The notes: generated by a model not told the origin, from the sequence alone. Shown: positions 5,027-59,096, counted from the first letter of the stretch. The stretch is DNA of 64,000 nucleotides from an uncultured Nitrospirales bacterium (GCA_964384595.1 CAYLLY010000003.1:198-64197); one strand, 5' to 3'. Numbers and translations: made by a program.

Positions 5027-5141
5027 GCGGTATTGAATATCCTGCACACTGATCGGGGCGCCCGTTGCATTGACCCTTTGCTTCTCGAAGAGCAATGGGT
5101 TCCCCAGCAACGGGCACCCGGTTGAGTGCAAGCTCGGTGAA

Positions 5142-5180: not shown

Positions 5181-5222
5181 AAAAGAAGCGCGTTTCAGAT
5201 GTGTACTGCAGGGGAGGCCGGA

Positions 5223-22242: not shown

Positions 22243-22258
22243 TGGCATCGCCATTGCT
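22243..22258 (+). promoter_or_regulatory. Sigma-54 (-24/-12) promoter candidate for the peroxidase/Rieske/Mo-enzyme array
   Basis: TGGCAT-CGCCA-TTGCT (consensus TGGCAC-N5-TTGCW) with exact GG-N10-GC spacing. It sits in a 383-bp non-coding gap, about 130 nt upstream of the 22387 start. Confidence 0.55.
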
Positions 22259-22386: not shown

Positions 22387-23589
22387 GTGGAGAGAAAAAA
22401 GAACAAACTATGGACATTCGTCATTTTGCTGTTCGGTGTGGCGATTGTGGCGGCTATGACGATGGCGTGGACCGCCTGGGCCGGAAACAACGAGGGCAAG
22501 ACCCCTCGTCCGCTCGCGGCCCTGCCGCCGGGCCCGCACCCGGGACCGGCGGACAACCCAACCACTCCGGAGAAGGCCAAGCTGGGGGAGTTGCTCTTCT
22601 TCGAGCAGCGGTTGTCGGGTGACGGGAGCACGCCCTGCTCCAAGTGCCATGATCCGAAGCAGGGATGGGGAACGACGGACGATCTCTCGATCGGCTATCC
22701 GGGGACGCAGCACTTCCGCAACTCGCACACAGTCCTCAACACCGGTCACCTGAAGAAGTATTTCTGGGAGGGCCGGGCCACGAGTCTTGAGGCCCAGGCC
22801 GGCGGCGCGGCGGGCGGGCAATCGGCCGGCAATCTCCAGTTCGACATAGGGGAGGCCCGGATGCGCCAGGTGCCGGAGTACCGGGAGATGTTCATGAAGG
22901 TCTTCGGCGAACTGCCGACCTGGGACAACGCGGCGCGGGCGATCGCGGCCTTCCAGCGGACGTTGAACTCGGATCCAAAGGTAGTCCCGTTCGACCGTTA
23001 CATGAACGGCGACAAGAGCGCCATGACCCCGCAGCAGGTCAAGGGCATGGAGCTCTTCAAAGGCAAGGCCAACTGCATCGCCTGCCACGATGGGATGATG
23101 TTCACCGACGAGGACCATCACAATCTCGGCCTGCCGCGCAACCCGGCCTTCGACGACGATCCGCTCAGGCAGATCGAGTTGCGGTTCCGCATGAAGTCGA
23201 ACGGCATCCAGAACTACAACGAAGTGGACGAGGATTTGGGACTCTACATGGCGACCCACCGGACGCAGGACATCGGGCGGTTTCGCACCGAGAAGCTGCG
23301 TGAGTCGAAGCACACGGCGCCGTACATGCACAACGGCGTCTTTTCCACGCTGGAGGAAGTCGTCGAGTTCTACGACAAGGGCGGCGAGGAGCCGGGCAAG
23401 TTCAAGGGCGTCAAGGACCCGCTCATGAAACCGCTGGAGCTGACGGCCGACGAGAAGAAGGCATTGGTGGCGTTCCTCGAGGCGCTCAGCAGCCCTGAGA
23501 CTCCGTTCAAGGACATCAACCCGGTCCTGCCGAAGGACGGGATCGTCACGGTGGACAAAAAAGTCGTGCCGCTGCCGGCCGGCAAGTAG
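22387..23589 (+). CDS. Di-haem cytochrome c peroxidase (CCP/MauG family)
   Basis: GTG start after gggggag. N-terminal TM/signal. Two CxxCH motifs (CSKCHD, CIACHDG). Conserved APYMHNGVFSTLEEVVEFY segment. Confidence 0.9.
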   Translation: MERKKNKLWTFVILLFGVAIVAAMTMAWTAWAGNNEGKTPRPLAALPPGPHPGPADNPTTPEKAKLGELLFFEQRLSGDGSTPCSKCHDPKQGWGTTDDLSIGYPGTQHFRNSHTVLNTGHLKKYFWEGRATSLEAQAGGAAGGQSAGNLQFDIGEARMRQVPEYREMFMKVFGELPTWDNAARAIAAFQRTLNSDPKVVPFDRYMNGDKSAMTPQQVKGMELFKGKANCIACHDGMMFTDEDHHNLGLPRNPAFDDDPLRQIELRFRMKSNGIQNYNEVDEDLGLYMATHRTQDIGRFRTEKLRESKHTAPYMHNGVFSTLEEVVEFYDKGGEEPGKFKGVKDPLMKPLELTADEKKALVAFLEALSSPETPFKDINPVLPKDGIVTVDKKVVPLPAGK

Positions 23590-23607
23590 GTAGGAGGTAC
23601 AACGACG

Positions 23608-24231
23608 ATGGACGAGAAGGAAACCAAAGACAGCAAACTGAAGATGCTCAAGGAATTGGGCGAGGATGTGGGATGCATGACGCGCCGCAAGCTGCTCTTC
23701 CTGGGCGGCTTGGCCACGGCCACGACGCTGCTCCCGCCGGCCGTTGCGGACACGCTTGCCGCGGCGCCGAAGGCCAAGCCCAAGGAGGCGTCGAAGAAAC
23801 CGACGCCGGTGGCGATGCAGAGCACGCATTACCCGAGAAAGAAAGTCGGCAAATTGAGCGCGTTGAAACAGGACGAGCCGGTGAAGATCTCCTATCCGGC
23901 CGAGCATCCGAATCACAAGGCGCTGCTCATCAAACTGGGCGTGCCGGCGCTCGGCGGCGTGGGTCCGCAGAAGGACGTGGTGGCGTTCAGCGCGCTGTGC
24001 GTCCACCAGGGCGGACCGCTCGAAGACCGGTACAACGCGAAGGAAAAGATCATGGGGCCGTGCGAATTCCATCTCTCAATGTACGATCTCACGAAGCACG
24101 GGATAATCACGAGCGCGTCGGCGACCCAGAACCTCCCGCAAGTTGTGCTGGAGGTGGAAGGGGACGACATTTACGCGGTAGGGATGCAGGGGCTCATCTA
24201 CGGGTTCCCGGACAACCTGCTGCCCGTCTAG
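23608..24231 (+). CDS. TAT-exported Rieske [2Fe-2S] small subunit, AioB/IdrB-like
   Basis: RBS aggagg (23591-23596). Twin-arginine TRRKLLFLGGLATA. Rieske boxes CVHQGG and CEFH (C-x-H ... C-x2-H). 18-nt gaps to both neighbouring genes. Confidence 0.88.
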   Translation: MDEKETKDSKLKMLKELGEDVGCMTRRKLLFLGGLATATTLLPPAVADTLAAAPKAKPKEASKKPTPVAMQSTHYPRKKVGKLSALKQDEPVKISYPAEHPNHKALLIKLGVPALGGVGPQKDVVAFSALCVHQGGPLEDRYNAKEKIMGPCEFHLSMYDLTKHGIITSASATQNLPQVVLEVEGDDIYAVGMQGLIYGFPDNLLPV

Positions 24232-24249
24232 ACGTAAGGGGGTGAAGAC

Positions 24250-26919: not shown

Positions 26920-26931
26920 GGGGAACGAATC

Positions 26932-26960
26932 TGGGGGACAGATTTGAAATCTGTCCCCCA
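26932..26960 (+). other. Perfect intergenic stem-loop (14-bp arms)
   Basis: TGGGGGACAGATTT-G-AAATCTGTCCCCCA, 13 nt after the Mo-subunit stop. No following T-tract. Confidence 0.8.
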
Positions 26961-26983
26961 TCAAATCAGGGAGGATTAGAGCG

Positions 26984-27730
26984 ATGGGCAAGTATAGGTT
27001 TGTAATGGCGGCCGTGGCGGCGATGGGGCTCGTGGCGGCGCCGGCGGCATTCGGATATGAGGAAGCGGCTGTGAGCGACGGGGGCGCCGTCACCGGCAAG
27101 ATCAGCTTCAAGGGGAAGGTCCCTGAGCCACAGCATTTCCTGGTGCAGAAGAACCCTGACGTCTGCGGGAAGGAGCGCGATTTTCCGTTCGTGCGGGTGA
27201 AAGACGGAGCGCTCCAGAACGTGGTGGTGGTCATCGAAGGCATTGAAAAGGGGAAACCCTTCACGCACGCGCCGACCGAGTTTATCGGGAAGGAATGCGC
27301 GTTTCTTCCGTATGTGTCGTTCGTGACCAAGAAGGGCGTGGACGGGTGGCCGGTGTTCAAGATCGAGAACACGGACACCGTCATTCACAATCCCCACACC
27401 TATGCGATCGCGGGGGCGACGCGGGTGACGTTATTTAACGTCGCATTGCCGGAGAAAGGCTCCAAGCTGGAGAAGGAGCTGAAGAACAGGAAAGGCAACG
27501 TCATCAAGCTGGAGTGCGACCAGCACGACTTCATGCACAGTTGGACGCGGGTGGTGGAGCATCCCTACTTCGCGGTGGTGGACGACGGGGGCGCCTTCAA
27601 GATCGACGGCGTGCCGGCAGGCAAGTACAAGCTCGTGGCGTGGCATCCGATCCTGGGCGAGCAGACGGCGGAAGTAACCGTCGCGGCCAAGGGATCGGCG
27701 AAGGCGGATTTCACGTTCGCGGGAAAGTAA
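26984..27730 (+). CDS. Secreted cupredoxin-like protein with putative type-1 Cu site and C-terminal beta-sandwich domain (paralog of 5223-6173)
   Basis: Signal peptide MAAVAAMGLVAAPAAFG. Candidate Cu ligands NTDTVIH and CDQHDFM (C-x2-H-x2-M). C-terminus GGAFKIDGVPAGKYKLVAWHP...AKGSAKADFTF. Confidence 0.85.
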   Translation: MGKYRFVMAAVAAMGLVAAPAAFGYEEAAVSDGGAVTGKISFKGKVPEPQHFLVQKNPDVCGKERDFPFVRVKDGALQNVVVVIEGIEKGKPFTHAPTEFIGKECAFLPYVSFVTKKGVDGWPVFKIENTDTVIHNPHTYAIAGATRVTLFNVALPEKGSKLEKELKNRKGNVIKLECDQHDFMHSWTRVVEHPYFAVVDDGGAFKIDGVPAGKYKLVAWHPILGEQTAEVTVAAKGSAKADFTFAGK

Positions 27731-27748
27731 AGAAAGGGGTGAAAGACA

Positions 27749-28918
27749 ATGAGTAGGCGAGGGAAAAATCTGATGGGGTTGGCGGCCTTCGTGGTCGTGT
27801 CGGGGCTTGCCTTGGTCGTGGCGCCGAGCGTCAATGCGGCCGAGACGGATCTGGGCCCTCTGCCGGCCTTGAAGGTGGATGAGAAGAAGGCGGAGCTGGG
27901 CAAGCTGCTGTTCTTCGACAAGCGAATGTCGGGCGATGCGGCGAGGTCTTGCAATGAGTGCCACAATCCCAAGAAAGGGTACGGAGACGATAGGGCGCTC
28001 TCGGAAGGGTATCCGGGGACCCTGCATTGGCGGAATGCCCAGACGCTGCTGAACGCGGCGCACCAGAAGGACCTCCACTGGCCGGGCTCGCAGGGCGACC
28101 TGGATACGTCCATCCGGACCCATGTGACCGGATGGATCCTCCTGAACGACGACGGGCGCGCCCTGGAAGAGCGCATGATCCTGGTTCCGGAGTATCGGAA
28201 CCGGTTCACGGAAGTGTACAAGATCAAACGGCATCCGATGTTCGGGCAGATCATGGGGGCGCTCTCGGAGTTCGTGAAGACGCTGGTGTCGGACCCGAAG
28301 AAAGTGCCGTTCGACCGGTACCTGGGCGGGGACCAATCGGCCTTGACGCCTCAACAAGTGAAAGGCCTGGAGCTGTTCAAGGGCAAGGCCAATTGCGCCG
28401 CCTGTCACAACGGCCCGCTGCTGAGCGACAAGGGCTACCACAACACGGGCGTTCCGACGAGCCCGGAGTTGTTGACGAATCCGCAGGTGCAGATCGCCGC
28501 TCGGCTCGAGAACATGACGATCGGCGTGTCGGGCTACGACACGATGATCGAGGACCTCGGCCGGTACATGTACACGAAGAACAAGAAGGACATCCGTAAG
28601 TTCCGGACACCGTCCTTGCGGGAGGCGAAGTACACGGCCCCGTACATGCATAACGGGACGCTCGCGACTCTGGCGGACGTGGTCGAGTTCTACAATGCGG
28701 GCGGCGGAAATGATGCGAATAAGGATGCGGCTCTCAAGCCGCTGGGGCTGACCGCGGAAGAGAAGGCGGCCCTGGTTGCCTTCCTGCAGAGCCTCAGCAG
28801 CGACACGTCGCCGTACGCGGATGCCCAGCCGGCGAAGTACGGCGAAGAGGGGTATCCGTATCAGGCGTTGAAGATCAATGAAGGCAAGCCCTGGACGAAG
28901 AAGGACCCGCGGGACTAA
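27749..28918 (+). CDS. Di-haem cytochrome c peroxidase (CCP/MauG family), second copy
   Basis: Signal peptide. CNECHNP and CAACHNG. APYMHNGTLATLADVVEFY. Confidence 0.9.
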   Translation: MSRRGKNLMGLAAFVVVSGLALVVAPSVNAAETDLGPLPALKVDEKKAELGKLLFFDKRMSGDAARSCNECHNPKKGYGDDRALSEGYPGTLHWRNAQTLLNAAHQKDLHWPGSQGDLDTSIRTHVTGWILLNDDGRALEERMILVPEYRNRFTEVYKIKRHPMFGQIMGALSEFVKTLVSDPKKVPFDRYLGGDQSALTPQQVKGLELFKGKANCAACHNGPLLSDKGYHNTGVPTSPELLTNPQVQIAARLENMTIGVSGYDTMIEDLGRYMYTKNKKDIRKFRTPSLREAKYTAPYMHNGTLATLADVVEFYNAGGGNDANKDAALKPLGLTAEEKAALVAFLQSLSSDTSPYADAQPAKYGEEGYPYQALKINEGKPWTKKDPRD

Positions 28919-28951: not shown

Positions 28952-29419
28952 ATGAGGCGACGGGCGGTCTGTGCGAGCGTAGCGATGGTAGGGCTGGTTC
29001 TGGGTGCGGCGATCGCTTACGGGGATGAGCCCCTCCCTCCGGTGCCGCCGGAATACAACAACCATAGCATGCCGAAAGGCTGGTGGACGGACCCGAAAGT
29101 GATCGCGGCCGGCAAGAAGATCTACACGGAAGGAATGCCCGACGAGGAGGGGAAGATCCAGAAGTGCGCCAAGTGCCATGGAGAAGATGGGAACCCCAAG
29201 CTGCGCGGCGCCAGGGACTTCCGGGCCGAGACGAAGATCAACCGGTATTCGGACAGTTACTTCTTCTGGCGGGTGTCCGAAGGCGTTCCCAAGACCAAGA
29301 TGAAGGGGTGGAAAGAGCGGCTGACGGATGAACAACGCTGGCAGGTGATCGCGTATGTCCATACCTTTTCGCACGGCGGAAAGCCGGAAGAGCACAAACA
29401 CAAGGAGGTCGGGAAGTGA
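28952..29419 (+). CDS. Mono-haem c-type cytochrome, periplasmic
   Basis: Signal peptide. Single CxxCH (CAKCHGEDG). Downstream YFFWRVSEG...MKGW with a Met candidate ligand. Confidence 0.85.
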   Translation: MRRRAVCASVAMVGLVLGAAIAYGDEPLPPVPPEYNNHSMPKGWWTDPKVIAAGKKIYTEGMPDEEGKIQKCAKCHGEDGNPKLRGARDFRAETKINRYSDSYFFWRVSEGVPKTKMKGWKERLTDEQRWQVIAYVHTFSHGGKPEEHKHKEVGK

Positions 29420-29493
29420 GGATGACCGGGAGGCGGGCCCCGGCGGGCTGAGCGAGTTGGCCGCTGCCGGCTCCGGAATACTGTGGACAGCGT

Positions 29494-29871
29494 ATGCCGA
29501 ACGGCGGTCGTTTGGCGAGGGTGGCATTCATGCTCGTGAGTCTCATGATTACGATCCTGACCGGGGTGGCCGTTCCGGCTGAAATCCATGAGGTGACCTT
29601 GCTGGACCGGGCGCCGTTCTACAGTTCCGGTCAGACGGTCAAGGTGACCGTCGGCGACACGGTCAGGTGGAAGAACCCGATGACGAAGGACGGCGCGACG
29701 CATACGGTGACGCAGATGGGATGCCTGACGGGCGATGCGTGCGAGTTCGATTCAGGGGTGTTGGCGCCGGGCCAGACATTCACCCACACGTTCACTGTGG
29801 CGGGCACGTTCACGTACCGCTGTCGCCTGCATGCGCTGATGGAGGGGGTCATCGTCGTCAATGGTCAATGA
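29494..29871 (+). CDS. Small blue-copper protein (plastocyanin/amicyanin-like cupredoxin)
   Basis: GDTVRWKNP...GATHTV and YRCRLHALMEG (C-x2-H-x2-M). Alternative start at ATG29530, which has a gaggg RBS. Confidence 0.82.
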   Translation: MPNGGRLARVAFMLVSLMITILTGVAVPAEIHEVTLLDRAPFYSSGQTVKVTVGDTVRWKNPMTKDGATHTVTQMGCLTGDACEFDSGVLAPGQTFTHTFTVAGTFTYRCRLHALMEGVIVVNGQ

Positions 29872-29905
29872 GAGGGAGTTGCCCGAGGAAAGGGGAGAGT
29901 TCGAG

Positions 29906-30451
29906 ATGAAGCGTACGTGGCTCAAGCGACCGAGGAAAGCGCTGGTGCTCGGACTGGCGGCGGCTCTTCTGGGCGGTCTGGTTGTGACGGCCGCCGCCCA
30001 GGTCTCAAGCATGACAGGGCAGGTGATGGATTTCGACAAGTCGGCGGGAACGCTGGAGGTCGAGCTCCAACGGGGGGACTTCGCCACGCTTTACCTGGAG
30101 AAGAATTCGCACTGGATCTTCCAGAAGGTGGATATCGGGGATCGGGTCCATGCGACGGTGGAGAAGCAGAACAACCGGTTGCTGGTCAAGGAGATCACCT
30201 TGCAGATCGGTCCCGGCGTGCAGATCGACTCGGTCCAGGGGGTCGTGACCAAAGTGAACCGCCGGGCCCATTCGCTCGAGGTCAAGACGGCGGCGGACAA
30301 GGAAGAGGTGCTCTACCTCGACCTGGACGCGCTGTCGGTGCTCGGGAAAGTGGCCGTGGGCGATCGGATCGAGGCCCGCGTGGAGACCGTGATCGAGGCG
30401 GGTGGTCCCAAAAAAGTGATTCGGGTCATCGTTGTGGGGAGCGGACCGTGA
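29906..30451 (+). CDS. Secreted hypothetical protein with two GDR(V/I)-type beta-rich repeats
   Basis: ATG29906 after aggggag. Signal LVLGLAAALLGGLVVTAAAQ. Repeats IGDRVHATVEKQNNRLLVKEITL and VGDRIEARVETVIEAGGPKKVIRVIVV. Confidence 0.68.
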   Translation: MKRTWLKRPRKALVLGLAAALLGGLVVTAAAQVSSMTGQVMDFDKSAGTLEVELQRGDFATLYLEKNSHWIFQKVDIGDRVHATVEKQNNRLLVKEITLQIGPGVQIDSVQGVVTKVNRRAHSLEVKTAADKEEVLYLDLDALSVLGKVAVGDRIEARVETVIEAGGPKKVIRVIVVGSGP

Positions 30452-30465
30452 CGGGAGGTGGCGCG

Positions 30466-30882
30466 ATGAAAGAGTTGACCCATCCGTCGCAGAGCGTGGT
30501 GGTGGCGGTCGTCGAGGATCTGCAACGGATCGCGCGGAGACTGATGACGATCTCCGAGGACGGGGTGGCCAGGGGAATGACCCATACCAACGGCGTCGAC
30601 TGCCTGATCGGGTTGGTTGATCGGATGGATTTTGCCTGCGCGTTGGCCGAGACCAAGAGCGGCGGTCAAACCGAGCCCGCAGAGACGGCCGGCGACCCCA
30701 CGGTGGGTGACCTGCCCGGACTCTGCCAAGACGTGCGCTGCAAGGCCGCCGACCTCGACCGGTTGAATCGGGACGGCGTGGGCGTGGCCTCTGAGATCGG
30801 AGAACTTGCGGCCGAGTTGATGCGCATCGAAGGTGAGCTTCGACGGGGGCTGGCTTCCGCAAGCGAGCCGCCGGCCGCCTGA
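30466..30882 (+). CDS. Hypothetical protein (no signal peptide)
   Basis: ATG30466 after gggagg (30453-30458). 138 aa. This is the in-frame tail of the longer track ORF 29917-30882, whose upstream part overlaps the better-supported 29906-30451 gene. Confidence 0.5.
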   Translation: MKELTHPSQSVVVAVVEDLQRIARRLMTISEDGVARGMTHTNGVDCLIGLVDRMDFACALAETKSGGQTEPAETAGDPTVGDLPGLCQDVRCKAADLDRLNRDGVGVASEIGELAAELMRIEGELRRGLASASEPPAA

Positions 30883-31076
30883 TCGTGAGAATCGGCGGGT
30901 GTCTGTTGAACTTGGGTCCGCGGGAACCACACGGACTGGCCTCCGGTTGCCCTGCGGATCTGCTGGTAGGGCCGGGCTTCACCCTCGCTGAAGGAGCGAG
31001 TACGCCCGGCTCCTACCGGCCATATTCTGAACGGCAGGCGATGCCGTCGGAGAGGAGCCAGAAGGGGAGAAGGGGA

Positions 31077-32918
31077 ATGGATGATCGCGTGAGAGCCGGA
31101 ACGAGGAACTTCCTCCCAATCGTGTGGATGTCGGCGCTCTTGCTCGGCGCCGTGATCGCGCTGTGGCCGCCGGGGGCGGCGCTGGCCCAGGAGACTCCGG
31201 CGGGACCAGGCGTGGAGTATCGGGACATCCCGTTCATGGGGAGCCGGAACCTCATCTGGATCGTCGCGCAGCTCCATCTCCTGTTGGCAGGGTTCGTGCT
31301 GGGCGTGCCGATCTTCGCGTGGGTGTGCGAGATCGTGGGGGTCAGAACGAAGGACCCGCGCTACGACAAGCTGGCCAAGGAGTTCACCAAGCTGCTCACC
31401 TCGTCCTACGCCACGACCGCGCTGTTCGGCGGCATCTTGTTGTTCCTGCTGATCGGCTCCTACCCGAAGCTGATGTCCTATCTCGCGGACGTCTTCTATC
31501 CGTCGTTCCTCGTCTATTGCGCGCTGTTCCTGCTGGAGACCGCGACCCTCTACCTCTACTGGTACGGCTGGGATTCGATGCAGGGGAGCAAGAAAGGCAT
31601 GCATCTGTTCCTCGGGTTCCTCCTCAACGTCTTCGCGTTCTTCATCATGATCGTGCCGAACTCCTGGGCGACCTTCCAGGCCAGCCCTGTCGTGATCGCG
31701 GAAGGCGATATGTGGGCGAAGGCCTGGGCGGCGACGTGGAACCCGACCTGGTGGCCGGTGAACATCCACCGCCTGATCGCGAACGTGGTGCTGGGCGGCT
31801 TCATCTGCGGGGCCTACGCCGGGCTCAAATACCTGATGGCTCAGAGCCCGGAAGAACGGGTGCACTACGACTGGATGGGGTACGTCGGGAATTTCATCGG
31901 CGTGTTCGGGATGCTGCCCCTCCCGTTCGCGGGCTACTGGCTGATGCGGGAGATCTACCAGTACAACCAGCAGATGGGCATCACCCTCATGGGCGGCTTC
32001 CTCTCCTGGCTGTTCATCCTGCAGGCCATGTTGATCGGCATCCTGTTCCTGGGGGCGAACTATTATTTCTGGCTCGGCATCATGTATCGCATTCCGGGTT
32101 CCGAAGCCAAGTACCGCAAGCCGATCCTGACGATGCTGGTCATCCTGCTCGTGTGCCTGGGGGTCTGGATGACCCCGCACTCCCTGGTCGCCAGCCTGGA
32201 AGAGGCCCGCAAGATGGGCGGGACTCATCACCCCTTGCTGGGCGTCTTGGGCGTGATGTCCGCGAAGATGACCGTGGCGAATCTCATGATCCTGGTGACG
32301 TTCATGAGCTTCGTCATGTACTGGCGGGCCGGCAAACAGGAGACCGCGCGTTGGGCAAAGGCCGCCAAGGTGGGCCAGTGGGCCATCCTGGGGATCGCGG
32401 TGATCGTGGTGCTGGTGCTGGGGGTGTGGGGCTACTTCGTGCCGGCCATCACGCGGATCAACTACTTTTCCACGACGCAGGTGCTGGTGGTGCTGTTTGT
32501 CTTGTTGACGATCACGCCCCTGACCGGGCTCTTACTCAAGAGCGCGAAGACGACCACGGAGATGATCTGGGGCGTCATGCCGGCGCGGGCGGGCTACGCG
32601 CTCGTCTTGAACGCCATCATGGTCATCCTCCTCATGACTCTGATGGGATACGCGCGCTCGTCGTCCAGGGTTCACTGGCATGTCTATGGGGTCATACAGG
32701 ATACGTCCCAGTACGCCTATTCCCCGGCGCTGGGCTACGCGGCCGCGTTGATGTCGCTATGCACGTTCCTCTTTTGCCTGCTGGTGGCGTTCATCTTCTG
32801 GGTGGCCTCGCTGGGTGGGGAGAAGAAAGGCCCTGTGACGGTGATGGCGGCTGAGAGAGAGAAGGAAGTGGTGACGCCGCCGGCCGGCGCGGCGCCGGTT
32901 ACAGCGGTTCGGGAATAG
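31077..32918 (+). CDS. Cytochrome bd-like oxidase, CydA-related subunit with extra C-terminal TM helices (no CydB partner in the locus)
   Basis: ATG31077 after gaaggggagaagggg. CydA-like N-terminus (NLIWIVAQLHLLLAGFVLGVPIFAW) and NPTWWPVNIHRLIANVVLGG. About 13-14 hydrophobic segments by eye, versus 9 in canonical CydA. The canonical GRQPW string is absent; SRVHWHVYG sits near the corresponding C-terminal region. Confidence 0.8.
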   Translation: MDDRVRAGTRNFLPIVWMSALLLGAVIALWPPGAALAQETPAGPGVEYRDIPFMGSRNLIWIVAQLHLLLAGFVLGVPIFAWVCEIVGVRTKDPRYDKLAKEFTKLLTSSYATTALFGGILLFLLIGSYPKLMSYLADVFYPSFLVYCALFLLETATLYLYWYGWDSMQGSKKGMHLFLGFLLNVFAFFIMIVPNSWATFQASPVVIAEGDMWAKAWAATWNPTWWPVNIHRLIANVVLGGFICGAYAGLKYLMAQSPEERVHYDWMGYVGNFIGVFGMLPLPFAGYWLMREIYQYNQQMGITLMGGFLSWLFILQAMLIGILFLGANYYFWLGIMYRIPGSEAKYRKPILTMLVILLVCLGVWMTPHSLVASLEEARKMGGTHHPLLGVLGVMSAKMTVANLMILVTFMSFVMYWRAGKQETARWAKAAKVGQWAILGIAVIVVLVLGVWGYFVPAITRINYFSTTQVLVVLFVLLTITPLTGLLLKSAKTTTEMIWGVMPARAGYALVLNAIMVILLMTLMGYARSSSRVHWHVYGVIQDTSQYAYSPALGYAAALMSLCTFLFCLLVAFIFWVASLGGEKKGPVTVMAAEREKEVVTPPAGAAPVTAVRE

Positions 32919-32935
32919 AAACGGAGATTCTTGTT

Positions 32936-33532
32936 ATGACGGAGACTCAGATCCTGCAAGCCCTCGGGTTGAGCATCATAGGATTGGGGGGCGCCGTGTT
33001 CCTGTTCGTGAATGCCCGTTTTCTCCGCGTGACGGCGTTCGTCGCCATCGTGCTGGGCACGTTTTCCCTCGTGGCGCTGGGCGTGCCGCAGATGGCCTCC
33101 ATGCCCCCCGTCGTGGAGAAGTTCGACCTGGCCGCGATCAAGGACAAGAGAGAGTTGGCGGGGATCGGGCAGAAAATCTTCTTCGGCGCGGGGCAGTGCG
33201 CGCTGTGCCACACCATCGGGAGCAGTGAGGGCCGATGTCCGGACTTGAAAGGCGTCGGCGCCAAGCTCACGCGCGAGTTCATTTTTGAGAGCCTCACACA
33301 ACCGCAAGCGTTCACCTACATGGATTACGAGCATGTGGGACCAGCCAAGGGGTTTCCGGCTAAGATGCCCTACATTAATAAAAAACCGATCGGCCTGAAC
33401 AAGAACGAGATACTGGCCGTGATCGCGTTTCTCCAGAACATGTCCGGTGAGGAGGTCACGGTGGATCTGGCCGAGCTCGAGGCCCCGAAGGATGTGGCGG
33501 CGGGACCAGGTGATAAGGCGAAGCCCTTGTGA
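32936..33532 (+). CDS. Membrane-anchored mono-haem cytochrome c
   Basis: Two N-terminal hydrophobic helices, then CALCHTIG (CxxCH). Confidence 0.82.
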   Translation: MTETQILQALGLSIIGLGGAVFLFVNARFLRVTAFVAIVLGTFSLVALGVPQMASMPPVVEKFDLAAIKDKRELAGIGQKIFFGAGQCALCHTIGSSEGRCPDLKGVGAKLTREFIFESLTQPQAFTYMDYEHVGPAKGFPAKMPYINKKPIGLNKNEILAVIAFLQNMSGEEVTVDLAELEAPKDVAAGPGDKAKPL

Positions 33533-33554
33533 TGGGAAACCGAGGAGAGACGGT

Positions 33555-34277
33555 ATGAAGCGTTCAGCATTGGCGTTAAAAGGCCTCATCCTGCTGGCGG
33601 CCGTTTTTGCGTTCCTGCAATACGGCCTGCCGTTCTTCACCGCGCCCCTGCCCATGAGCCTGATCTGGCTCTATTTGTTCACGACCGCCGTGGGGGTCAT
33701 CGTGTTTGGGACGCTCAGCGGGGAATCCACGGAAGCCTTCTTAGGGCCGATCTTTCGATTTTTGAGCGGAGAGGGCATGAACGGAGTGGCCAAGCATGCG
33801 CGGCTCTTGATCCTCGTGCTCCTGCCCCTTTTGGTGGGCTGGCAGACGTACAGCGGGCTGGTCCCGAGCACGGAGCCGCCCGCCGAGAACCGCACGATCC
33901 ATCCGGCGCCGCCCGGGGAGTTCGTCGGATTGGCCAATCCCGTGCCGAATACGCCGGAGAACGTGATGATGGGGAAGGGCTTGTACGCCGCCTTTTGTGC
34001 GCCGTGCCATGGGGCCAAATTCAACGGCAACGGCCCCGCCGCCGACGGCTTCAACCCGCCACCGGCCAATTTCGCCGATCCCGGCACCATCGCCATGCTC
34101 CAGGAGTCGTACCTCTTCTGGCGTATCAAGAAGGGTGGGGTGGGGCTGTCGGTCGAGGGCCATCCGTGGAAATCGGCCATGCCGCGCTGGGAAGTGGAGC
34201 TGCCGGACGATTGGATATGGAAGATCATCATGGCGGAATACGAAGGGGCCGGGCAAAAGCCCCGGACGTGGGAGTAA
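33555..34277 (+). CDS. Membrane-anchored mono-haem cytochrome c
   Basis: ATG33555 after gaggagag. Three hydrophobic helices, then CAPCHGAKFNG. YLFWRIKKGG...MPRW resembles the 28952 cytochrome. Confidence 0.82.
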   Translation: MKRSALALKGLILLAAVFAFLQYGLPFFTAPLPMSLIWLYLFTTAVGVIVFGTLSGESTEAFLGPIFRFLSGEGMNGVAKHARLLILVLLPLLVGWQTYSGLVPSTEPPAENRTIHPAPPGEFVGLANPVPNTPENVMMGKGLYAAFCAPCHGAKFNGNGPAADGFNPPPANFADPGTIAMLQESYLFWRIKKGGVGLSVEGHPWKSAMPRWEVELPDDWIWKIIMAEYEGAGQKPRTWE

Positions 34278-34280
34278 GCG

Positions 34281-35228
34281 ATGGCTGTGTGGTTCCGATA
34301 TCTGGTTGCCGGATGTACGATTGCGGCGGTGGGGTTTCTGAGCGCGCCGCCGGCGCACTCCCAGGAGAGCGTGGTGGTCCGCGTGAAGCTGGTCCAGGGA
34401 GAGGTGCCGACCGACCCCCTGGCGCTGGTCTGGGGCACGGTTCCGGCGGCGGAGTTTCCGCTGTCTCCGCAGGTCCACTGGCAGAAACGCATCGGGTCGG
34501 TGACGGCCAAGTCCGTCAAGGTCCGGGGGGTTCACAACAACAAGCAGATTGCGTTCATGGTGGAGTACGCCGATCCGGCCCAGGACCCCGCCGACGCCGC
34601 CGCGCTGGAGTTCATGGTGGGGGACAAGAAGGCTCATTTCGCGCACGGGCAGCCCATGGTTCAGGTGGAAGGCGGGCCGGTCAACATCTGGTACTGGCGG
34701 AACGACGTCCCGGGAGCCGCGGACATGTCCGCGCAGGGCTTCGGGACGCTGGCAAAGCAGGCCCAGCAGGACGTCCGGGCGAAGGGCGTCTGGAAGGACG
34801 AGAAGACCAAGATCACGTTCAAGGAGCGCAAGCAGAGCCTGCGGAAAGACCCCCAGGGGGAATTGGTGAAAGACCCCAAAACCGGGGACCCCGTGGTCGA
34901 TGAAGAGACAAAGGTGGTCGAGCAGGACGTGAGCGGCGTGTGGCGCGTCGTTTTCACCCGCGCGCTGACCACGACCGACAAGGAGGACGTCCAGATCCAG
35001 ACGGGGACGTTCCCCAACGTCGCCTTCGCAGTGTGGGACGGCAAGAAGCTGGAGAGCGGCGATCTGAAGGAGTCCGGCTCGCAAAAGGCCATCAGTTCCT
35101 GGTGGTTCTTCAACGCGGAGCCGCCGCCCGACTATTCGATCTATCTGTACGGCTTGGTGGCGGTGGTGCTCGCGGGTGGTGTCGAATTCATCATCATCCG
35201 CAAGACCAGAAAGGGGCAGCAGACATGA
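34281..35228 (+). CDS. EB_dh/DOMON-like (ethylbenzene-dehydrogenase gamma / NxrC-like) putative haem-b protein with C-terminal TM anchor
   Basis: Signal peptide. Pattern VKVRGVHNNKQIAFMVEYADPAQD...ALEFMVGD...VNIWYWRND, typical of the EB_dh fold as I remember it. C-terminal helix IYLYGLVAVVLAGGVEFIII. The family call is by pattern only. Confidence 0.6.
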   Translation: MAVWFRYLVAGCTIAAVGFLSAPPAHSQESVVVRVKLVQGEVPTDPLALVWGTVPAAEFPLSPQVHWQKRIGSVTAKSVKVRGVHNNKQIAFMVEYADPAQDPADAAALEFMVGDKKAHFAHGQPMVQVEGGPVNIWYWRNDVPGAADMSAQGFGTLAKQAQQDVRAKGVWKDEKTKITFKERKQSLRKDPQGELVKDPKTGDPVVDEETKVVEQDVSGVWRVVFTRALTTTDKEDVQIQTGTFPNVAFAVWDGKKLESGDLKESGSQKAISSWWFFNAEPPPDYSIYLYGLVAVVLAGGVEFIIIRKTRKGQQT

Positions 35229-36049
35229 GGGCACAGCACGTTGTGGGAATCGCCGCCGCCGCGGCCGTGGCGGCCACAGTCGGACTCGCGGGCTGCGCGC
35301 TGTTCGAGAGCGAGCAGGTCGCCACGGGGCGCAAGCTCTTCGAGTACTATTGCCTGCACTGTCACGGCGAAAAAGGAATGGGGAACGGGTTCAACGCGAA
35401 GCATCTCGACCCCAAACCGCGGGATCTCACGGACAAAGATGAAGAGTTCATGGTGAAGATGTCCAACGAGGAGATCTATGAGGTGATTTCCCGCGATATG
35501 ATGTCCCAGGAGGAGTTCGACGAGAAATACGGCGAAGACACGGACAAGCTGTTCACGCCGCCGAACATGCCCTCGTTCAAGCACACCCTCTCCGATGCGG
35601 AGCGCTGGTCGCTGGTCGCGTTCGTGCGGACGTTGCACAAGAACGCCGCGCCCAGGGTGGAGATTCCGGCCCAGGCCGCCAAGGAGCGGCCCAAGTTCCC
35701 GCCCGCGCCCAAGCCGACGCTTGCCTCCGCGCCCGCGGACCTGGAGAAGCTGGCCGCGAAGGGAAAGACCCTCTATGAGGATAAATACGGGTGCCATGCC
35801 TGCCACGCGATCGGCGCGAAGGGGGGGATCGTCGGCCCCGAACTCGACCGGGCGGGGTTCCGCTTGAACGCCGCGTGGGTGTACCGGTGGATCAAGTATC
35901 CGCAGGCCATGAAGCCGCACACCAAGATGCCGAACCTGGGCGTGTCGGACGACGACGCGCTGGCGATCACGGCCCATCTCGGGACCCTGAAGGCGGAGCC
36001 TCCGGCCGAGCCGTCCGCCGCGCCCACGAAACAGGCCTCGGCGCAGTGA
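35225..36049 (+). CDS. Di-haem c-type cytochrome lipoprotein
   Basis: ATG35225 overlaps the previous stop (ATGA). Lipobox GLAGC. Two CxxCH motifs (CLHCHGEKG, CHACHAIG). Confidence 0.85.
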   Translation: MRAQHVVGIAAAAAVAATVGLAGCALFESEQVATGRKLFEYYCLHCHGEKGMGNGFNAKHLDPKPRDLTDKDEEFMVKMSNEEIYEVISRDMMSQEEFDEKYGEDTDKLFTPPNMPSFKHTLSDAERWSLVAFVRTLHKNAAPRVEIPAQAAKERPKFPPAPKPTLASAPADLEKLAAKGKTLYEDKYGCHACHAIGAKGGIVGPELDRAGFRLNAAWVYRWIKYPQAMKPHTKMPNLGVSDDDALAITAHLGTLKAEPPAEPSAAPTKQASAQ

Positions 36050-36066
36050 CCGGAGAGGAGCGCGGC

Positions 36067-36576
36067 ATGAAAAGGAGAGTCCTGGTCATTTCTAGGAACG
36101 AGGAGGTCGGGGAGTGGTTCAGGGGAGTTCTCGGCGGCCGTAAATCGGGGCAGACGGTCACCGTGGTGGGCGATCTGCAACCGGCTATCCGGATGCTGAA
36201 GCGAACTTCCCCCCACGTGGTGATTTTCGTCGAAGAGGGGCCTGAGAGGGACGACGACAGGCTGATGTTGCTGCGGGCGCTGCTCCTTATCGAGGAGCAG
36301 TGCCACCGGAACACGCTGGCGATCCTGTACGACCTCGCCGAAAACCGTATGACGATGTACCACAACGTTCACTTCCCGCAGGTGAATCGGCTGGACGTGG
36401 CGATGGCGGCACAGGAGGGCGCGCGTTGCCCGCTCTTCGGCGATGCGGAGGAGGCGGATGTGGCAGCTCAGGCGTATCCTGCAGATTGCCCCTACCTCCC
36501 CATCGGGACCGCCGGGATGGGCGCCGGCTGCGGGACGGCGGTGAGAGAGAATGAGTCGGTCGAACGGAAAGAATAA
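36067..36576 (+). CDS. Hypothetical cytoplasmic protein, receiver-like flavodoxin fold?
   Basis: ATG36067 after ggagaggag. RVLVISRNEE...PHVVIFVEEG resembles a CheY-like beta-alpha pattern, but I cannot identify the phospho-acceptor Asp. Cys-containing C-terminus. Confidence 0.5.
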   Translation: MKRRVLVISRNEEVGEWFRGVLGGRKSGQTVTVVGDLQPAIRMLKRTSPHVVIFVEEGPERDDDRLMLLRALLLIEEQCHRNTLAILYDLAENRMTMYHNVHFPQVNRLDVAMAAQEGARCPLFGDAEEADVAAQAYPADCPYLPIGTAGMGAGCGTAVRENESVERKE

Positions 36577-36617: not shown

Positions 36618-37751
36618 ATGGGCATACAGAGCATGGTGATCAGGATGAGATCTGCGCCGATCTTCGCGGTGGTCGGCCTCGCGACCCTGCTGGCCGGAGC
36701 AGCGGAGGCCCAATCCCCGGAGGTGGACGCTCCGAAGCAGCCGATCCCGGTGTTCAAGAACGTGCAGGTCAACCCCTATTCCATGCCGGACCTCACGAGC
36801 CAGCAGAATCTCTCCGTGAAGGCGACGGGCAAGGTGGTGGAGTATACCCTCACGATCGAGGCGATCCGGTGGAAGATCACGGGGAATGTCTACATGAATC
36901 AGTGGGCCTTCAACGGGCAAGTGCCGGGTCCGCTCATGGAGGCCACAGAGGGGGACTTGGTCCGGGTTTCGGTGAAGAACAATACCACGGTCAACCATAC
37001 CATTCACCACCACGGGATATGGACCCCGACCGTGATGGACGGTGTGCCGGACATGACGCAGAAACCCATCGAGCCCGGCGAGACCTTCGTGTACGAATTC
37101 ATCGCCAAGCCGGCGGGTTTTCACTGGTATCACTGTCATGTCAACGCGGCGGAGCATCTGGAGATGGGATTGTACGGCGGGTTCATCGTCCATCCGGCGC
37201 CCGAGACCGGACTGGGCACGACCAAGGAGCAGGTGGCCGATCCCGCGCTCAAGATTGATCGGGAGTACATCTTCGTCGTGGACGAGATGGACACGCGAAT
37301 CGAGGAGGGCAAGGCGGGCGGCCTCGGCCTCGGCCACCCACGGATGATCAGCAACTTCAATTACTTCACGATCAACGGGAAGGCGTTCCCCGAGACCCCG
37401 ATGATTTACGTGCGCGAGGGGGAGACGGTTCGGATCCGGCTGCTGAACGTGGGCTCCGTGGTGCACTCGTTCCACCTGCACGGACACACCTTCGCCACGA
37501 GCAGCGCCGAATGTGATCGGTGTCCGCGGACCTGGGAATACCGCGACGTCATCAACATCAGCCCGGCGCAGCGGCTGGACGTCGTCTTCAAAGCGAACAA
37601 TCCCGGGCGCTGGATGTTCCACTGTCACATCCCTCCCCACGTGACGAACGATGGCGTGTACCCGGGCGGCATGATGTCCATGGTGGAGTACGAGAACAAT
37701 CCCTATCTCAAGTTCCTGCCGCCGATGGACGGGCACGGGAAGCACAAATGA
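36618..37751 (+). CDS. Two-domain multicopper oxidase with type-1-Cu-type motifs in both domains
   Basis: 377 aa with a signal peptide. HTIHHHG (HxH), WYHCHVNAAEHLEMG (H-C-H-x3-H-x4-M), HSFHLHGH (HxH), FHCHIPPHVTNDG...M. Confidence 0.88.
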   Translation: MGIQSMVIRMRSAPIFAVVGLATLLAGAAEAQSPEVDAPKQPIPVFKNVQVNPYSMPDLTSQQNLSVKATGKVVEYTLTIEAIRWKITGNVYMNQWAFNGQVPGPLMEATEGDLVRVSVKNNTTVNHTIHHHGIWTPTVMDGVPDMTQKPIEPGETFVYEFIAKPAGFHWYHCHVNAAEHLEMGLYGGFIVHPAPETGLGTTKEQVADPALKIDREYIFVVDEMDTRIEEGKAGGLGLGHPRMISNFNYFTINGKAFPETPMIYVREGETVRIRLLNVGSVVHSFHLHGHTFATSSAECDRCPRTWEYRDVINISPAQRLDVVFKANNPGRWMFHCHIPPHVTNDGVYPGGMMSMVEYENNPYLKFLPPMDGHGKHK

Positions 37752-38812: not shown

Positions 38813-38868
38813 GACTTGAGAAGGAGGGATACACGACGGGGAATGGAAATGCAGCCTAGCGGCGAATC

Positions 38869-39699: not shown

Positions 39700-39788
39700 G
39701 CGCGTCGTCCCAATAACACGTCCTGTGGACGGAGCGGCCTTACGAGTTTCGCGGGGGTGGGCACCGCGGAATACAGGGAGGAGGGCCT

Positions 39789-41105: not shown

Positions 41106-41115
41106 GAGGGTCCTC

Positions 41116-57502: not shown

Positions 57503-57532
57503 CAGGGCGAGGGGGGGGTAAGGAGTCAAGGC

Positions 57533-59080: not shown

Positions 59081-59096
59081 GCCGGTGAGGAACTGA

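What the first reader, a model, noticed from the sequence alone, without database searches (positions are those of the whole stretch)
28952..36049. CydB-less bd-like oxidase module surrounded by c-type cytochromes, a blue-copper protein and an NxrC/EB_dh-like protein
Seen: the CydA-related ORF (31077-32918) has the CydA-like N-terminal His helix. It differs from canonical CydA in three ways:
- about 13-14 hydrophobic segments instead of 9;
- no GRQPW string, with SRVHWHVYG in that area instead;
- no cydB or cydX next to it.

It is flanked by the following genes:
- mono-haem c, 28952-29419;
- cupredoxin, 29494-29871;
- two unknowns, 29906-30882;
- two TM-anchored mono-haem c cytochromes, 32936-34277;
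- a TM-anchored EB_dh-like protein, 34281-35228;
- a di-haem c lipoprotein, 35225-36049, whose start overlaps the previous stop (ATGA).

Established: 'bd-like' oxidases lacking canonical quinol-site features have been proposed as novel terminal oxidases in Nitrospira/Nitrospina-type genomes, but remain biochemically uncharacterised.

Inference: this looks like a cytochrome-c- or cupredoxin-oxidising (not quinol-oxidising) membrane complex of at least five subunits.
Basis: partly seen in the sequence, partly recalled or inferred. Interest (0 to 1): 0.78.

Follow-up and report, generated by a model that had tools for sequence, protein, structure and literature searches.

The report
Nitrospira-type bd-like cytochrome c oxidase cluster
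This is the well-known but never purified "cytochrome bd-like" putative terminal oxidase gene cluster of Nitrospira-type bacteria, found here in an unusual setting: it lacks its usual partner genes and sits just downstream of an arsenite oxidase cassette.

Summary
Window 31077-36049 encodes a 613-aa CydA-related membrane protein, two membrane-anchored mono-haem cytochromes c, a membrane-anchored EB_dh/NxrC-like protein and a di-haem c lipoprotein.

It is not new. The CydA-like protein is the orthologue (80% identity, same downstream gene order) of the N. defluvii gene the literature calls NIDE0901 / bd-like_2 / OR-N2, proposed since 2010 as the cytochrome c-oxidising terminal oxidase of Nitrospirales. 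No structure or biochemistry exists for it.

- **Conservation:** the five genes are colinear in 76 of 81 related loci. In other phyla the EB_dh and di-haem c parts are fused into one protein.
- **Residues:** the equivalents of His19, Glu107, His126 and His186 are kept. Glu99 is an invariant Tyr. The Q-loop, GRQPW, cydB and cydX are absent.
- **What is unusual:** in 58 of 59 relatives a second CydA paralogue (OR-N1) and a Rieske/cytochrome b complex lie directly upstream. They are absent from this whole 64-kb window. Here the upstream genes are a horizontally acquired aioBA arsenite oxidase cassette, a cytochrome c, blue-copper proteins and two unknowns.

Verdict: a new member of a known, uncharacterised kind, of moderate interest.

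The parts
31077..32918 (+). OR-N2-type (NIDE0901-like) CydA-related catalytic subunit, 613 aa. The JGI call is 31128-32918, 596 aa. Residue numbers in this report use the 596-aa form; add 17 for the 613-aa form.
   Evidence: Pfam PF01654 matches the N-terminal ~240 aa only. It is 80% identical to N. defluvii and 85% to N. moscoviensis. hhalign to E. coli CydA aligns residues 8-151. The AlphaFold2 model's 10 best PDB matches are all CydA. A Shine-Dalgarno sequence precedes 31077.
32936..33532 (+). Membrane-anchored (2 TM) mono-haem cytochrome c, CALCH
   Evidence: Pfam Cytochrom_C. Hydropathy and CxxCH count. The haem domain matches Kuenenia Kustd1711 (PDB 7ZS0, E 1.5e-18), whose haems are at about +350 mV (PMC11791136). 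Colinear in relatives.
33555..34277 (+). Membrane-anchored (3 TM) mono-haem cytochrome c, CAPCH
   Evidence: Pfam Cytochrome_CBB3 and Cytochrom_C.. Homologues hold the same position in Rhodothermia, Acidobacteriota-like and Myxococcota loci.
34281..35228 (+). EB_dh / NxrC-like putative haem b subunit with a signal peptide and a C-terminal TM anchor (the 'alt_NxrC_1' type)
   Evidence: Pfam EB_dh scores 73.6 bits against a cut-off of 33.3. TIGR03477 scores 97.5, below its 169.85 cut-off. It aligns to EbdC (2IVF_C) and NXR-C (7B04_C). EbdC's Lys201 aligns with Lys263.
35225..36049 (+). Di-haem cytochrome c lipoprotein (CLHCH, CHACH), translationally coupled by an ATGA overlap
   Evidence: It is fused to the EB_dh domain in one 504-622 aa protein in L086, L087 and L088.
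28952..29419 (+). Mono-haem cytochrome c with a signal peptide or anchor; a conserved upstream neighbour and a candidate donor
   Evidence: Pfam. It is 41-54% identical to the cytochrome c that precedes OR-N1 in N. defluvii and other Nitrospirales.
29494..29871 (+). Small amicyanin-like cupredoxin (C-x2-H-x2-M), lineage-specific
   Evidence: Pfam Copper-bind. A weak TIGR02657 amicyanin match. Found only in the related short contigs L091 and L092 and in none of the 80 genome loci.
29906..30451 (+). Exported or anchored protein of unknown function, lineage-specific
   Evidence: No family passes a cut-off. Homologues at 74-83% identity hold the same position in L091 and L092.
30466..30882 (+). 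138-aa protein of unknown function with no TM helix, lineage-specific
   Evidence: No family hit. A 69% identical homologue lies directly upstream of the oxidase gene in L082.
36046..36576 (+). 176-aa unknown whose start overlaps the di-haem c stop by 4 nt
   Evidence: A homologue (47% identity) holds the same place in L082. No Pfam hit.
36618..37751 (+). 377-aa multicopper oxidase immediately downstream
   Evidence: Pfam Cu-oxidase_3, _2 and Cu-oxidase. 90% identical in L082.
22387..28918 (+). Upstream context: a cassette of MauG-like di-haem peroxidase, aioB, aioA, a T1Cu-Ig protein (26984-27730) and a second MauG-like peroxidase
   Evidence: TIGR02694 scores 122.3 against 95.65, and TIGR02693 scores 415 against 359.05. 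Pfam. The same cassette occurs in L089 and L090. The T1Cu motif is seen in alignment A3.

Best explanation
The locus encodes the OR-N2 (NIDE0901-type) cytochrome bd-like oxygen reductase complex of Nitrospirales. It takes electrons from periplasmic high-potential carriers, not from quinol.

Shown here:
- The catalytic subunit keeps the CydA N-terminal four-helix bundle, with the axial His of the O2-reducing haem (His50 = E. coli His19) and the channel Glu (Glu137 = Glu107).
- It keeps the helix-5 His of the entry haem b (His214 = His186).
- It has no Q-loop.
- It is encoded together with two membrane-anchored mono-haem c proteins, an anchored EB_dh-type protein and a di-haem c lipoprotein, as a conserved five-gene unit.

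Inferred:
- Electrons pass from soluble cytochrome c or cupredoxin, through the anchored c haems and the Met/Lys-type haem b of the EB_dh subunit, to the His214 haem and then to the His50 active-site haem.
- O2 is reduced there to water, using protons drawn from the cytoplasm.
- A membrane potential is built by charge separation, as in cytochrome bd.
- In this lineage the nearest likely electron source is the adjacent AioBA arsenite oxidase, acting through the cytochrome c and blue-copper proteins encoded between the two modules.
For: - **Orthology and synteny:** 80% and 85% identity to the N. defluvii and N. moscoviensis genes that are followed by two cytochromes c and alt_NxrC_1. This matches the description of bd-like_2, the putative complex IV (PMC6606698).
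- **Module conservation:** the five genes are colinear in 76 of 81 loci, and every miss is a short contig.
- **Presence outside nitrite oxidisers:** the same module, with EB_dh fused to the di-haem c, occurs in Rhodocaloribacter litoris, in an unnamed MAG contig (L087) whose protein groups with homologues that NCBI labels Acidobacteriota, and in Myxococcota.
- **Residue mapping:** hhalign and local alignments map His50, Glu137, His159 and His214. These residues are invariant or nearly so in 126 sequences from several phyla.
- **No Q-loop:** no loop is longer than about 28 aa in a confident AlphaFold2 model. CydA is the only significant fold match.
- **High-potential haem c:** the first anchored cytochrome c is homologous to Kustd1711, measured at about +350 mV (PMC11791136).
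- **Literature:** closed genomes of aerobic Nitrospira such as N. lenta carry only OR-N enzymes as oxygen reductases (PMC12342949). The cluster is among the most highly transcribed during nitrite oxidation (PMC6606698).
Against: - No OR-N enzyme has been purified or solved. There is no such entry in the PDB copy searched, and the literature states this explicitly (PMC10839748).
- Glu99 is replaced by an invariant Tyr.
- The Met393 and Glu445 equivalents cannot be identified, because nothing aligns beyond helix 5. The number and type of haems are therefore unknown.
- The proposed partner OR-N1 is missing from the 64 kb, so this copy might be incomplete on its own.
- Linkage to aioBA is adjacency only. 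No shared promoter or terminator could be defined.
Confidence: 0.6

Rival explanations
1. The complex is not an oxidase. It is a cytochrome c:quinone oxidoreductase, acting like an alternative complex III. It pushes electrons from high-potential donors uphill into the quinone pool, at the expense of proton motive force, to supply reverse electron transport for CO2 fixation.
For: This was proposed for bd-like proteins of the nxr cluster (PMC3578206) and for bd-like_3 (PMC6606698). The 8-9 helices after helix 5 have no detectable relative and could hold a quinone site. In L087 the module lies next to ActB-like and multihaem genes.
Against: The parts conserved with CydA are exactly the O2-reduction parts (the His19 and Glu107 equivalents), not the quinol site. 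The module occurs in the aerobic heterotroph Rhodocaloribacter litoris, which has no obvious need for reverse electron flow. The literature assigns this role to other paralogues, not to the NIDE0901 type.
Confidence: 0.15
2. It is chiefly a membrane docking and electron-collecting station for periplasmic molybdoenzymes, such as NXR through the NxrC-like subunit. The CydA-like protein would serve as a haem b membrane anchor rather than a catalytic oxidase.
For: The EB_dh subunit is related to the gamma subunits of NXR and ethylbenzene dehydrogenase. The literature suggests alt_NxrC_1 may link NXR to complex IV (PMC6606698). Here a different molybdoenzyme, AioBA, lies next door.
Against: No nxrAB is present in the window. 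The module occurs in organisms not known to oxidise nitrite. A mere anchor would not need the invariant channel Glu and active-site His. This reading is not exclusive of the oxidase model.
Confidence: 0.1
3. The catalytic subunit is a haem-copper hybrid. A cluster of conserved His residues binds a CuB-like copper next to the active-site haem, as first suggested for NIDE0901.
For: Nine His residues are invariant in 80 Nitrospirales orthologues. Five of them (351, 367, 368, 516, 518) lie in two loops predicted to face the periplasm. AlphaFold2 models these loops with low confidence, as is often seen for cofactor sites. The literature states that putative copper sites exist (PMC6606698, PMC8115632). 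Copper proteins surround the locus.
Against: Across 126 sequences from several phyla only His50, 159, 214, 368 and 518 are (nearly) invariant. His246/His516 are replaced by Arg/Asp, and His351/His367 by Arg/Ser-Thr-Ala, in many homologues. A site built from those four residues cannot define the family. No coordinates were available to measure distances between the His residues.
Confidence: 0.2
4. It is a detoxifying enzyme (an NO, H2O2 or O2 scavenger) rather than an energy-conserving terminal oxidase.
For: Canonical cytochrome bd has such side roles (PMC10839748). Two MauG/peroxidase-like genes and a multicopper oxidase are neighbours.
Against: In Nitrospira that lack other oxidases it must carry the respiratory flux (PMC12342949). 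It is very highly transcribed during growth (PMC6606698). The MauG-like genes belong to the aio cassette, as in L089 and L090.
Confidence: 0.05

Closest known systems
NIDE0901 / bd-like_2 / OR-N2 / 'TO_1' putative terminal oxidase cluster of Nitrospirota (Lucker 2010; Mundinger 2019, PMC6606698; Murali 2021, bioRxiv 10.1101/2021.01.16.426971; PMC9040806; PMC12342949)
   Same: It is an orthologous catalytic subunit, 76-91% identical. The downstream order is the same: two anchored cytochromes c, alt_NxrC_1-type EB_dh, di-haem c. It has about 14 hydrophobic segments, no Q-loop, and conserved first helices including the His19 equivalent.
   Different: It lacks the OR-N1 paralogue, cytochrome c, Rieske/cytochrome b complex and 340-aa unknown that sit directly upstream in 58 of 59 relatives. 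It has instead a cupredoxin, two unknowns and an aioBA cassette.
Canonical cytochrome bd quinol oxidase CydABX (E. coli 6RKO, Geobacillus 5DOQ)
   Same: The fold and sequence of helices 1-5 match. The equivalents of His19, Glu37, Glu107, His126 and His186 are kept. The topology is N-terminus outside, C-terminus inside.
   Different: It has no Q-loop or quinol site, and no GRQPW or Glu445. Glu99 is replaced by Tyr. It has 13 crossings instead of 9. There is no CydB or CydX. Its partners are c-type cytochromes and an EB_dh protein.
cbb3-type haem-copper oxidase (CcoNOP)
   Same: The logic of electron entry is similar: a membrane catalytic subunit fed by a membrane-anchored mono-haem c and a di-haem c subunit. 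Weak FixO and Cytochrome_CBB3 profile matches are seen, along with weak CcoP matches in the PDB.
   Different: The catalytic subunit is unrelated in fold and there is no COX1 domain. Copper is unproven.
Gamma subunits of type II DMSO-reductase enzymes (NxrC of Kuenenia 7B04_C, EbdC 2IVF_C)
   Same: It has the EB_dh fold family, and the Lys haem ligand of EbdC aligns.
   Different: It scores below the TIGR03477 cut-off. It carries a C-terminal membrane anchor and is not encoded next to alpha/beta subunits. In other phyla it is fused to a di-haem c.
OR-C family of bd-like reductases (Murali 2021)
   Same: It is a CydA-like core without a quinol site, thought to take electrons from haem c.
   Different: In OR-C the haem c domains are fused to an 8-helix CydA. 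Here the c haems are on separate anchored subunits and the core has 13-14 helices.

Membership tests
Canonical CydA (quinol-oxidising cytochrome bd subunit I) | Full-length match to PF01654 | tested here: not met
   Only profile positions 3-241 of 418 match. hhalign to E. coli CydA covers only residues 8-151 with the full alignment and 1-247 with the N-terminal half.
Canonical CydA (quinol-oxidising cytochrome bd subunit I) | Axial His of the active-site haem (E. coli His19) | tested here: met
   His50 aligns with His19. It is His in 122 of 126 homologues.
Canonical CydA (quinol-oxidising cytochrome bd subunit I) | Proton-channel glutamates Glu99 and Glu107 | tested here: inconclusive
   Glu137 aligns with Glu107 and is invariant. 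Glu99 aligns with the invariant Tyr130, with a one-residue deletion between the two positions.
Canonical CydA (quinol-oxidising cytochrome bd subunit I) | Haem b558 ligands His186 and Met393 | tested here: inconclusive
   His214 aligns with His186 and is invariant. Met393 cannot be aligned. The invariant Met288 and Met377 are only positional candidates.
Canonical CydA (quinol-oxidising cytochrome bd subunit I) | Glu445 / GRQPW motif | tested here: not met
   The string is absent and the C-terminal half shows no profile similarity. RSSSRVHWHVYG is a look-alike only.
Canonical CydA (quinol-oxidising cytochrome bd subunit I) | Periplasmic Q-loop with the quinol site | tested here: not met
   The longest non-helical stretches in the AlphaFold2 model are about 22-28 aa.
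Canonical CydA (quinol-oxidising cytochrome bd subunit I) | Adjacent cydB (and cydX) | tested here: not met
   tblastn with E. coli CydB gives E > 0.5 anywhere in the 64 kb.
OR-N2 (NIDE0901-like) bd-like oxygen reductase | Closest to the N. defluvii and N. moscoviensis gene that is followed by two cytochromes c and alt_NxrC_1, not to the OR-N1 paralogue | tested here: met
   80% and 85% identity with conserved downstream synteny. Only 36% identity to N. defluvii OR-N1.
OR-N2 (NIDE0901-like) bd-like oxygen reductase | About 14 helices, first four helices shared with CydA, quinol site missing | tested here: met
OR-N2 (NIDE0901-like) bd-like oxygen reductase | Co-located OR-N1 partner (the proposed CydAA' pair). 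This is usual but not strictly defining. | tested here: not met
   No paralogue exists in the window. It is present upstream in 58 of 59 relatives.
OR-N2 (NIDE0901-like) bd-like oxygen reductase | O2 reduction with cytochrome c as the donor | not testable with these tools
   No biochemical data exist for any family member (PMC10839748).
Haem-copper oxidase superfamily | COX1-type 12-helix fold with a CuB His triad | tested here: not met
   There is no COX1 Pfam hit. The fold search returns only CydA and CydB.
NxrC / EbdC (type II DMSO reductase gamma subunit), tested for 34281-35228 | EB_dh domain above the family cut-offs | tested here: inconclusive
   Pfam EB_dh passes (73.6 against 33.3). 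TIGR03477 fails (97.5 against 169.85).
NxrC / EbdC (type II DMSO reductase gamma subunit), tested for 34281-35228 | Met/Lys haem b ligands | tested here: inconclusive
   Lys263 aligns with EbdC Lys201. EbdC Met108 falls in a gap, with Met125 three positions away.
NxrC / EbdC (type II DMSO reductase gamma subunit), tested for 34281-35228 | Encoded with the alpha and beta subunits | tested here: not met
   There is no NxrAB-type gene in the window. The only molybdopterin enzymes are AioA and a SorA-like protein.
Arsenite oxidase AioBA (upstream neighbour) | Equivalog scores, the 3Fe-4S motif and active-site residues | tested here: met
   TIGR02693 scores 415 against 359 and TIGR02694 scores 122 against 96. 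A Rieske_3 domain is present. In the alignment to NT-26 AioA (4AAY), the His and the R-x-G-G-H-Q motif are kept and Glu is replaced by Asp.

The most novel reading that the evidence does not exclude
In this Nitrospirales lineage the OR-N2 module works as a self-sufficient oxidase, without an OR-N1 partner or an adjacent bc complex. It has been rewired to a horizontally acquired arsenite oxidase through a cytochrome c and blue-copper carriers. The result would be an As(III)-to-O2 respiratory chain ending in a bd-like oxidase, in a group known only for nitrite and ammonia oxidation.
Probability: 0.2. Interest if true: 0.6.

Novelty: new member of a known kind. Interest (0 to 1): 0.35.

Why it matters
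Nitrospira-type bacteria produce much of the world's nitrate, yet most have no conventional cytochrome c oxidase. The enzyme encoded here is the leading candidate for how they respire oxygen, and it has never been isolated.

This locus adds no new enzyme. It does show two things:
- The five-gene module can stand apart from the OR-N1 paralogue and the bc complex it normally travels with. This bears on the open question of subunit composition, namely whether a CydAA' pair is needed.
- The module can sit next to an arsenite oxidase, which hints at arsenite as a further energy source or detoxification route in Nitrospirales.

The fusion of the EB_dh and di-haem c proteins in other phyla is useful evidence that these are true subunits.

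Tried and rejected
- **Internal duplication or a hidden CydB-like half:** I compared the N-terminal and C-terminal halves and three helix blocks with hhalign. I also compared the C-terminal half with E. coli CydA and CydB. Every comparison gave a probability of 0.1% or less.
- **Met393 and Glu445 equivalents by sequence:** there is no significant alignment. The E. coli 386-420 match to the last helix has E = 1.3.
- **Distances between His residues:** model coordinates are not exposed to scripts. The copper-site question therefore rests on conservation alone.
- **Transcription unit boundaries:** the sigma-70 promoter scan was at chance level. The terminator scan found 22 sites against 12.9 expected, but none marks a gene boundary. 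Sigma-54 sites are not enriched (17 found against 25 expected). One 1-mismatch site at 22243 lies upstream of the aio cassette and none lies upstream of the oxidase gene.
- **Lucker et al. 2010 (PNAS):** the paper is not held, so the original NIDE0901 residue assignments could not be checked.
- **Finding OR-N1 elsewhere in the source genome:** only the contig around the window could be reached. One look-up found nothing.
- **Metagenome scan for the junction gene:** it returned only two short contigs.
- **His246/His516 co-variation (H/H against R/D):** I considered it as a sign of contact. By the favoured topology the two residues lie on opposite membrane faces, so I leave it unexplained.

Full report
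**What is there.** The window is a Nitrospirales metagenome contig, JGI 3300009444 Ga0114945_10000005, positions 10230-74229.
- a mono-haem cytochrome c;
- a small cupredoxin with an amicyanin-type C-x2-H-x2-M site;
- two proteins without any family;
- a 613-aa CydA-related membrane protein;
- two mono-haem cytochromes c, with two and three N-terminal membrane helices;
- an EB_dh-family protein with a signal peptide and a C-terminal anchor;
- a di-haem c lipoprotein whose ATG overlaps the preceding stop.

Gaps inside the core are 17, 22, 3 and -4 nt. Residue numbers below follow the 596-aa JGI form; add 17 for the longer form.

**The CydA-like protein.**
- Pfam PF01654 matches only profile positions 3-241 of 418.
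- Profile alignment to E. coli CydA covers residues 8-151. It equates His50 with His19, Glu68 with Glu37, Tyr130 with Glu99 (with a one-residue deletion), Glu137 with Glu107 and His159 with His126.
- His214 aligns with His186, both in a local alignment and in a phmmer match to a mycobacterial CydA.
- Beyond helix 5 nothing aligns to CydA, to CydB or to the protein's own N-terminal half.
- An AlphaFold2 model built on 126 homologues is confident (pLDDT 84.3, pTM 0.86). It shows 14 long helices after the signal peptide and no loop longer than about 28 residues, so there is no Q-loop.
- The model's ten best PDB matches are all CydA chains, followed by CydB. No OR-N-type structure is in the PDB copy searched.
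- Counting Lys and Arg in the loops favours 13 crossings with the N-terminus outside and the C-terminus inside (27 inside against 10 outside). The polar helix 265-288 would then lie at the periplasmic surface, where CydA has its Q-loop.
- GRQPW is absent, and no cydA, cydB or second paralogue exists anywhere in the 64 kb.

**Conservation.**
- All nine His residues are invariant in 80 Nitrospirales orthologues, but so are 347 of the 596 positions.
- In 126 sequences that also include homologues 47-57% identical to the window protein, those with an NCBI name being labelled Acidobacteriota, Thermoanaerobaculia, Myxococcota, Calditrichae, Rhodothermia and Methylomirabilales, these residues stay invariant or nearly so: His50, Glu68, Tyr130, Glu137, His159, His214, Arg215, Asp248, Glu275, Met288, Glu359, His368, Met377, Arg510, Arg514, Trp517 and His518.
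- His246 and His516 change together to Arg and Asp in 12 sequences. His351 and His367 change to Arg plus Ser, Thr or Ala in about 30 sequences.
- A copper site built from those four residues therefore cannot be a family trait.
- The His-bearing loops 348-375 and 513-534 are the low-confidence parts of the model. By the favoured topology they face the periplasm, on the same side as His50 and His214.

**It is a known system.**
- The protein has thousands of close relatives: 4166 with E ≤ 1e-5 among the candidates scored, the best at 91% identity.
- There are 541 matching loci in species-representative genomes, and about 183 clusters at 50% identity with E ≤ 1e-30.
- It is 80% identical to a gene of Ca. 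N. defluvii (FP929003.1, 877597-879312) and 85% identical to one of N. moscoviensis.
- In both genomes the same four genes follow it. That is how Mundinger et al. describe bd-like_2: the putative complex IV, followed by two highly expressed cytochrome c genes and alt_NxrC_1 (PMC6606698).
- Later work calls this the NIDE0901-like OR-N2 subunit (PMC12342949; bioRxiv 10.1101/2021.01.16.426971), and TO_1 in Manganitrophus (PMC9040806).
- These papers already propose a cytochrome c-oxidising terminal oxidase that lacks the quinol site. They also state that subunit composition and function are unconfirmed (PMC10839748).

**How solid is the five-subunit idea?**
- The five genes are colinear in 76 of 81 related loci, and all five misses are truncated contigs.
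- In Rhodocaloribacter litoris, in an unnamed MAG contig (L087) and in a Myxococcota MAG, the module is a CydA-like gene, two cytochrome c genes, and one 504-622 aa protein that joins two haem c domains to an EB_dh domain.
- That fusion is independent evidence that the EB_dh protein and the di-haem c, translationally coupled here, act together.
- The presence of the module in organisms not known to oxidise nitrite argues against a purely NXR-specific role.
- The EB_dh protein aligns with EbdC and Kuenenia NXR-C, and the Lys haem ligand of EbdC matches Lys263.
- The haem domain of the first anchored cytochrome c is homologous (E 1.5e-18) to Kustd1711 of the Kuenenia nxr cluster. Its haems titrate near +350 mV (PMC11791136).
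- A chain of high-potential haems leading to a CydA-type O2 site is the simplest reading.

**What is unusual here.**
- In N. defluvii the order is: cytochrome c, OR-N1 (567 aa), cytochrome c, Rieske, cytochrome b, a 340-aa unknown, OR-N2.
- Of 59 related loci with at least 6.5 kb of upstream sequence, 58 have OR-N1, Rieske and cytochrome b there. The exception is L037, whose upstream genes are unrelated.
- The window has none of these genes anywhere in its 64 kb.
- It keeps the first cytochrome c (42% identical to the N. defluvii one), followed by the cupredoxin and two unknowns.
- This is not an assembly accident. L082 (oxidase 91% identical) shares the 138-aa unknown and the downstream genes (multicopper oxidase, cyclase-like, desaturase, sulfite oxidase-like). 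Two metagenome contigs share the order MauG-like, cytochrome c, cupredoxin, unknown.
- The oxidase stays 86-89% identical to orthologues from genomes with the usual layout. Either OR-N1 lies elsewhere in this genome or it is not needed in cis. The tools could not decide between these.

**Upstream cassette.**
- Genes 23608-26919 pass the NCBIfam equivalog cut-offs for the arsenite oxidase small and large subunits.
- They keep the 3Fe-4S motif, the active-site His and the R-x-G-G-H-Q motif, with Glu replaced by Asp, relative to NT-26 AioA.
- MauG-like di-haem peroxidases flank them. A 248-aa protein follows, combining a type-1 copper motif (HNPHTY ... CDQHDFM) with an Ig-like domain.
- Further upstream lie a porin and a Cache-HAMP kinase with a sigma-54 regulator.
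- The same cassette occurs in the nearest AioA relatives, which are only 64-66% identical. Those relatives that carry an NCBI organism name are labelled with other phyla. This suggests horizontal acquisition.
- Homologues of the T1Cu-Ig protein also flank both OR-N modules of the Myxococcota locus.
- Arsenite oxidases reduce cytochrome c or azurin-type proteins. This is established knowledge, reflected in the NCBIfam name 'arsenate reductase (azurin)'. An Aio to cytochrome c or cupredoxin to OR-N2 chain is therefore plausible, but it rests on adjacency only.

**Verdict.**
- The cupredoxin and the two unknowns are lineage-specific neighbours, not parts of the conserved module.
- I give 0.6 to the cytochrome c-level O2 reductase model. 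Lower weights go to a reverse-electron-transport role, a molybdoenzyme docking role and a detoxifying role. I give 0.2 to the haem-copper sub-hypothesis.
- I rate it a new member of a known, uncharacterised kind, with a context variant worth noting. Interest is 0.35.

Noticed in passing
window 22387-28918: A complete arsenite oxidase cassette: a MauG-like peroxidase, aioB with a twin-arginine signal, aioA, a T1Cu-Ig protein and a second MauG-like peroxidase. Both aio genes pass the NCBIfam equivalog cut-offs. The nearest AioA relatives are only 64-66% identical, and none of the listed relatives that carry an NCBI organism name is labelled Nitrospira.
   Followed up: partly
window 26984-27730 and 5070-6173; L088 6786-7562 and 12800-13546; L089 11770-12528: A recurrent protein of about 250 aa joins a type-1 copper motif (HNxHTY ... 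C-D-Q-H-D-F-M) to a CarboxypepD_reg/fn3_3 Ig-like domain. It lies next to both aio cassettes and OR-N oxidase modules in different phyla. It may be an unrecognised blue-copper electron carrier.
   Followed up: partly
L086 11612-13189, L087 11636-13504, L088 11257-12771 and 2320-3972: Outside Nitrospirales the EB_dh domain and two haem c domains are fused into a single protein downstream of the CydA-like gene and two cytochrome c genes.
   Followed up: yes
window 11307-15073: A Cache-HAMP histidine kinase and a sigma-54 response regulator resemble AioS/AioR. The same pair precedes the porin-MauG-aioBA cassette in L089. A 1-mismatch sigma-54 consensus lies at 22243-22258, about 130 nt upstream of the first MauG-like gene, although such sites are not enriched in the window overall.
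   Followed up: partly
window 110-5026: A giant 1638-aa ORF with multicopper oxidase domains only near its N-terminus.
   Followed up: no
window 36618-42327: Downstream of the oxidase module lie a 377-aa multicopper oxidase, a squalene-hopene-cyclase-like protein, a fatty-acid desaturase, an FAD monooxygenase and a SorA-like sulfite oxidase. The sulfite oxidase would be another periplasmic enzyme that could feed cytochrome c.
   Followed up: no
window 56417-61483; L086 14833-17842; L087 13521-15752; L088 13579-14490: Radical SAM, Usp and PCP_red-domain genes recur close to OR-N modules in three other phyla. They also lie about 20 kb downstream here, next to a ResB cytochrome c biogenesis gene. 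A link to cofactor maturation is possible but untested.
   Followed up: no
OR-N2 residues 246/516 and 351/367 (596-aa numbering), alignment A2: Correlated replacements are seen: His/His changes to Arg/Asp in 12 sequences, and His/His changes to Arg plus Ser, Thr or Ala in about 30 sequences. By the favoured topology, residues 246 and 516 lie on opposite membrane faces, so the first pair is unexplained.
   Followed up: partly
L083 13135-21654 (just beyond the 3' end of the window): A V-type ATPase operon follows on the same contig.
   Followed up: no
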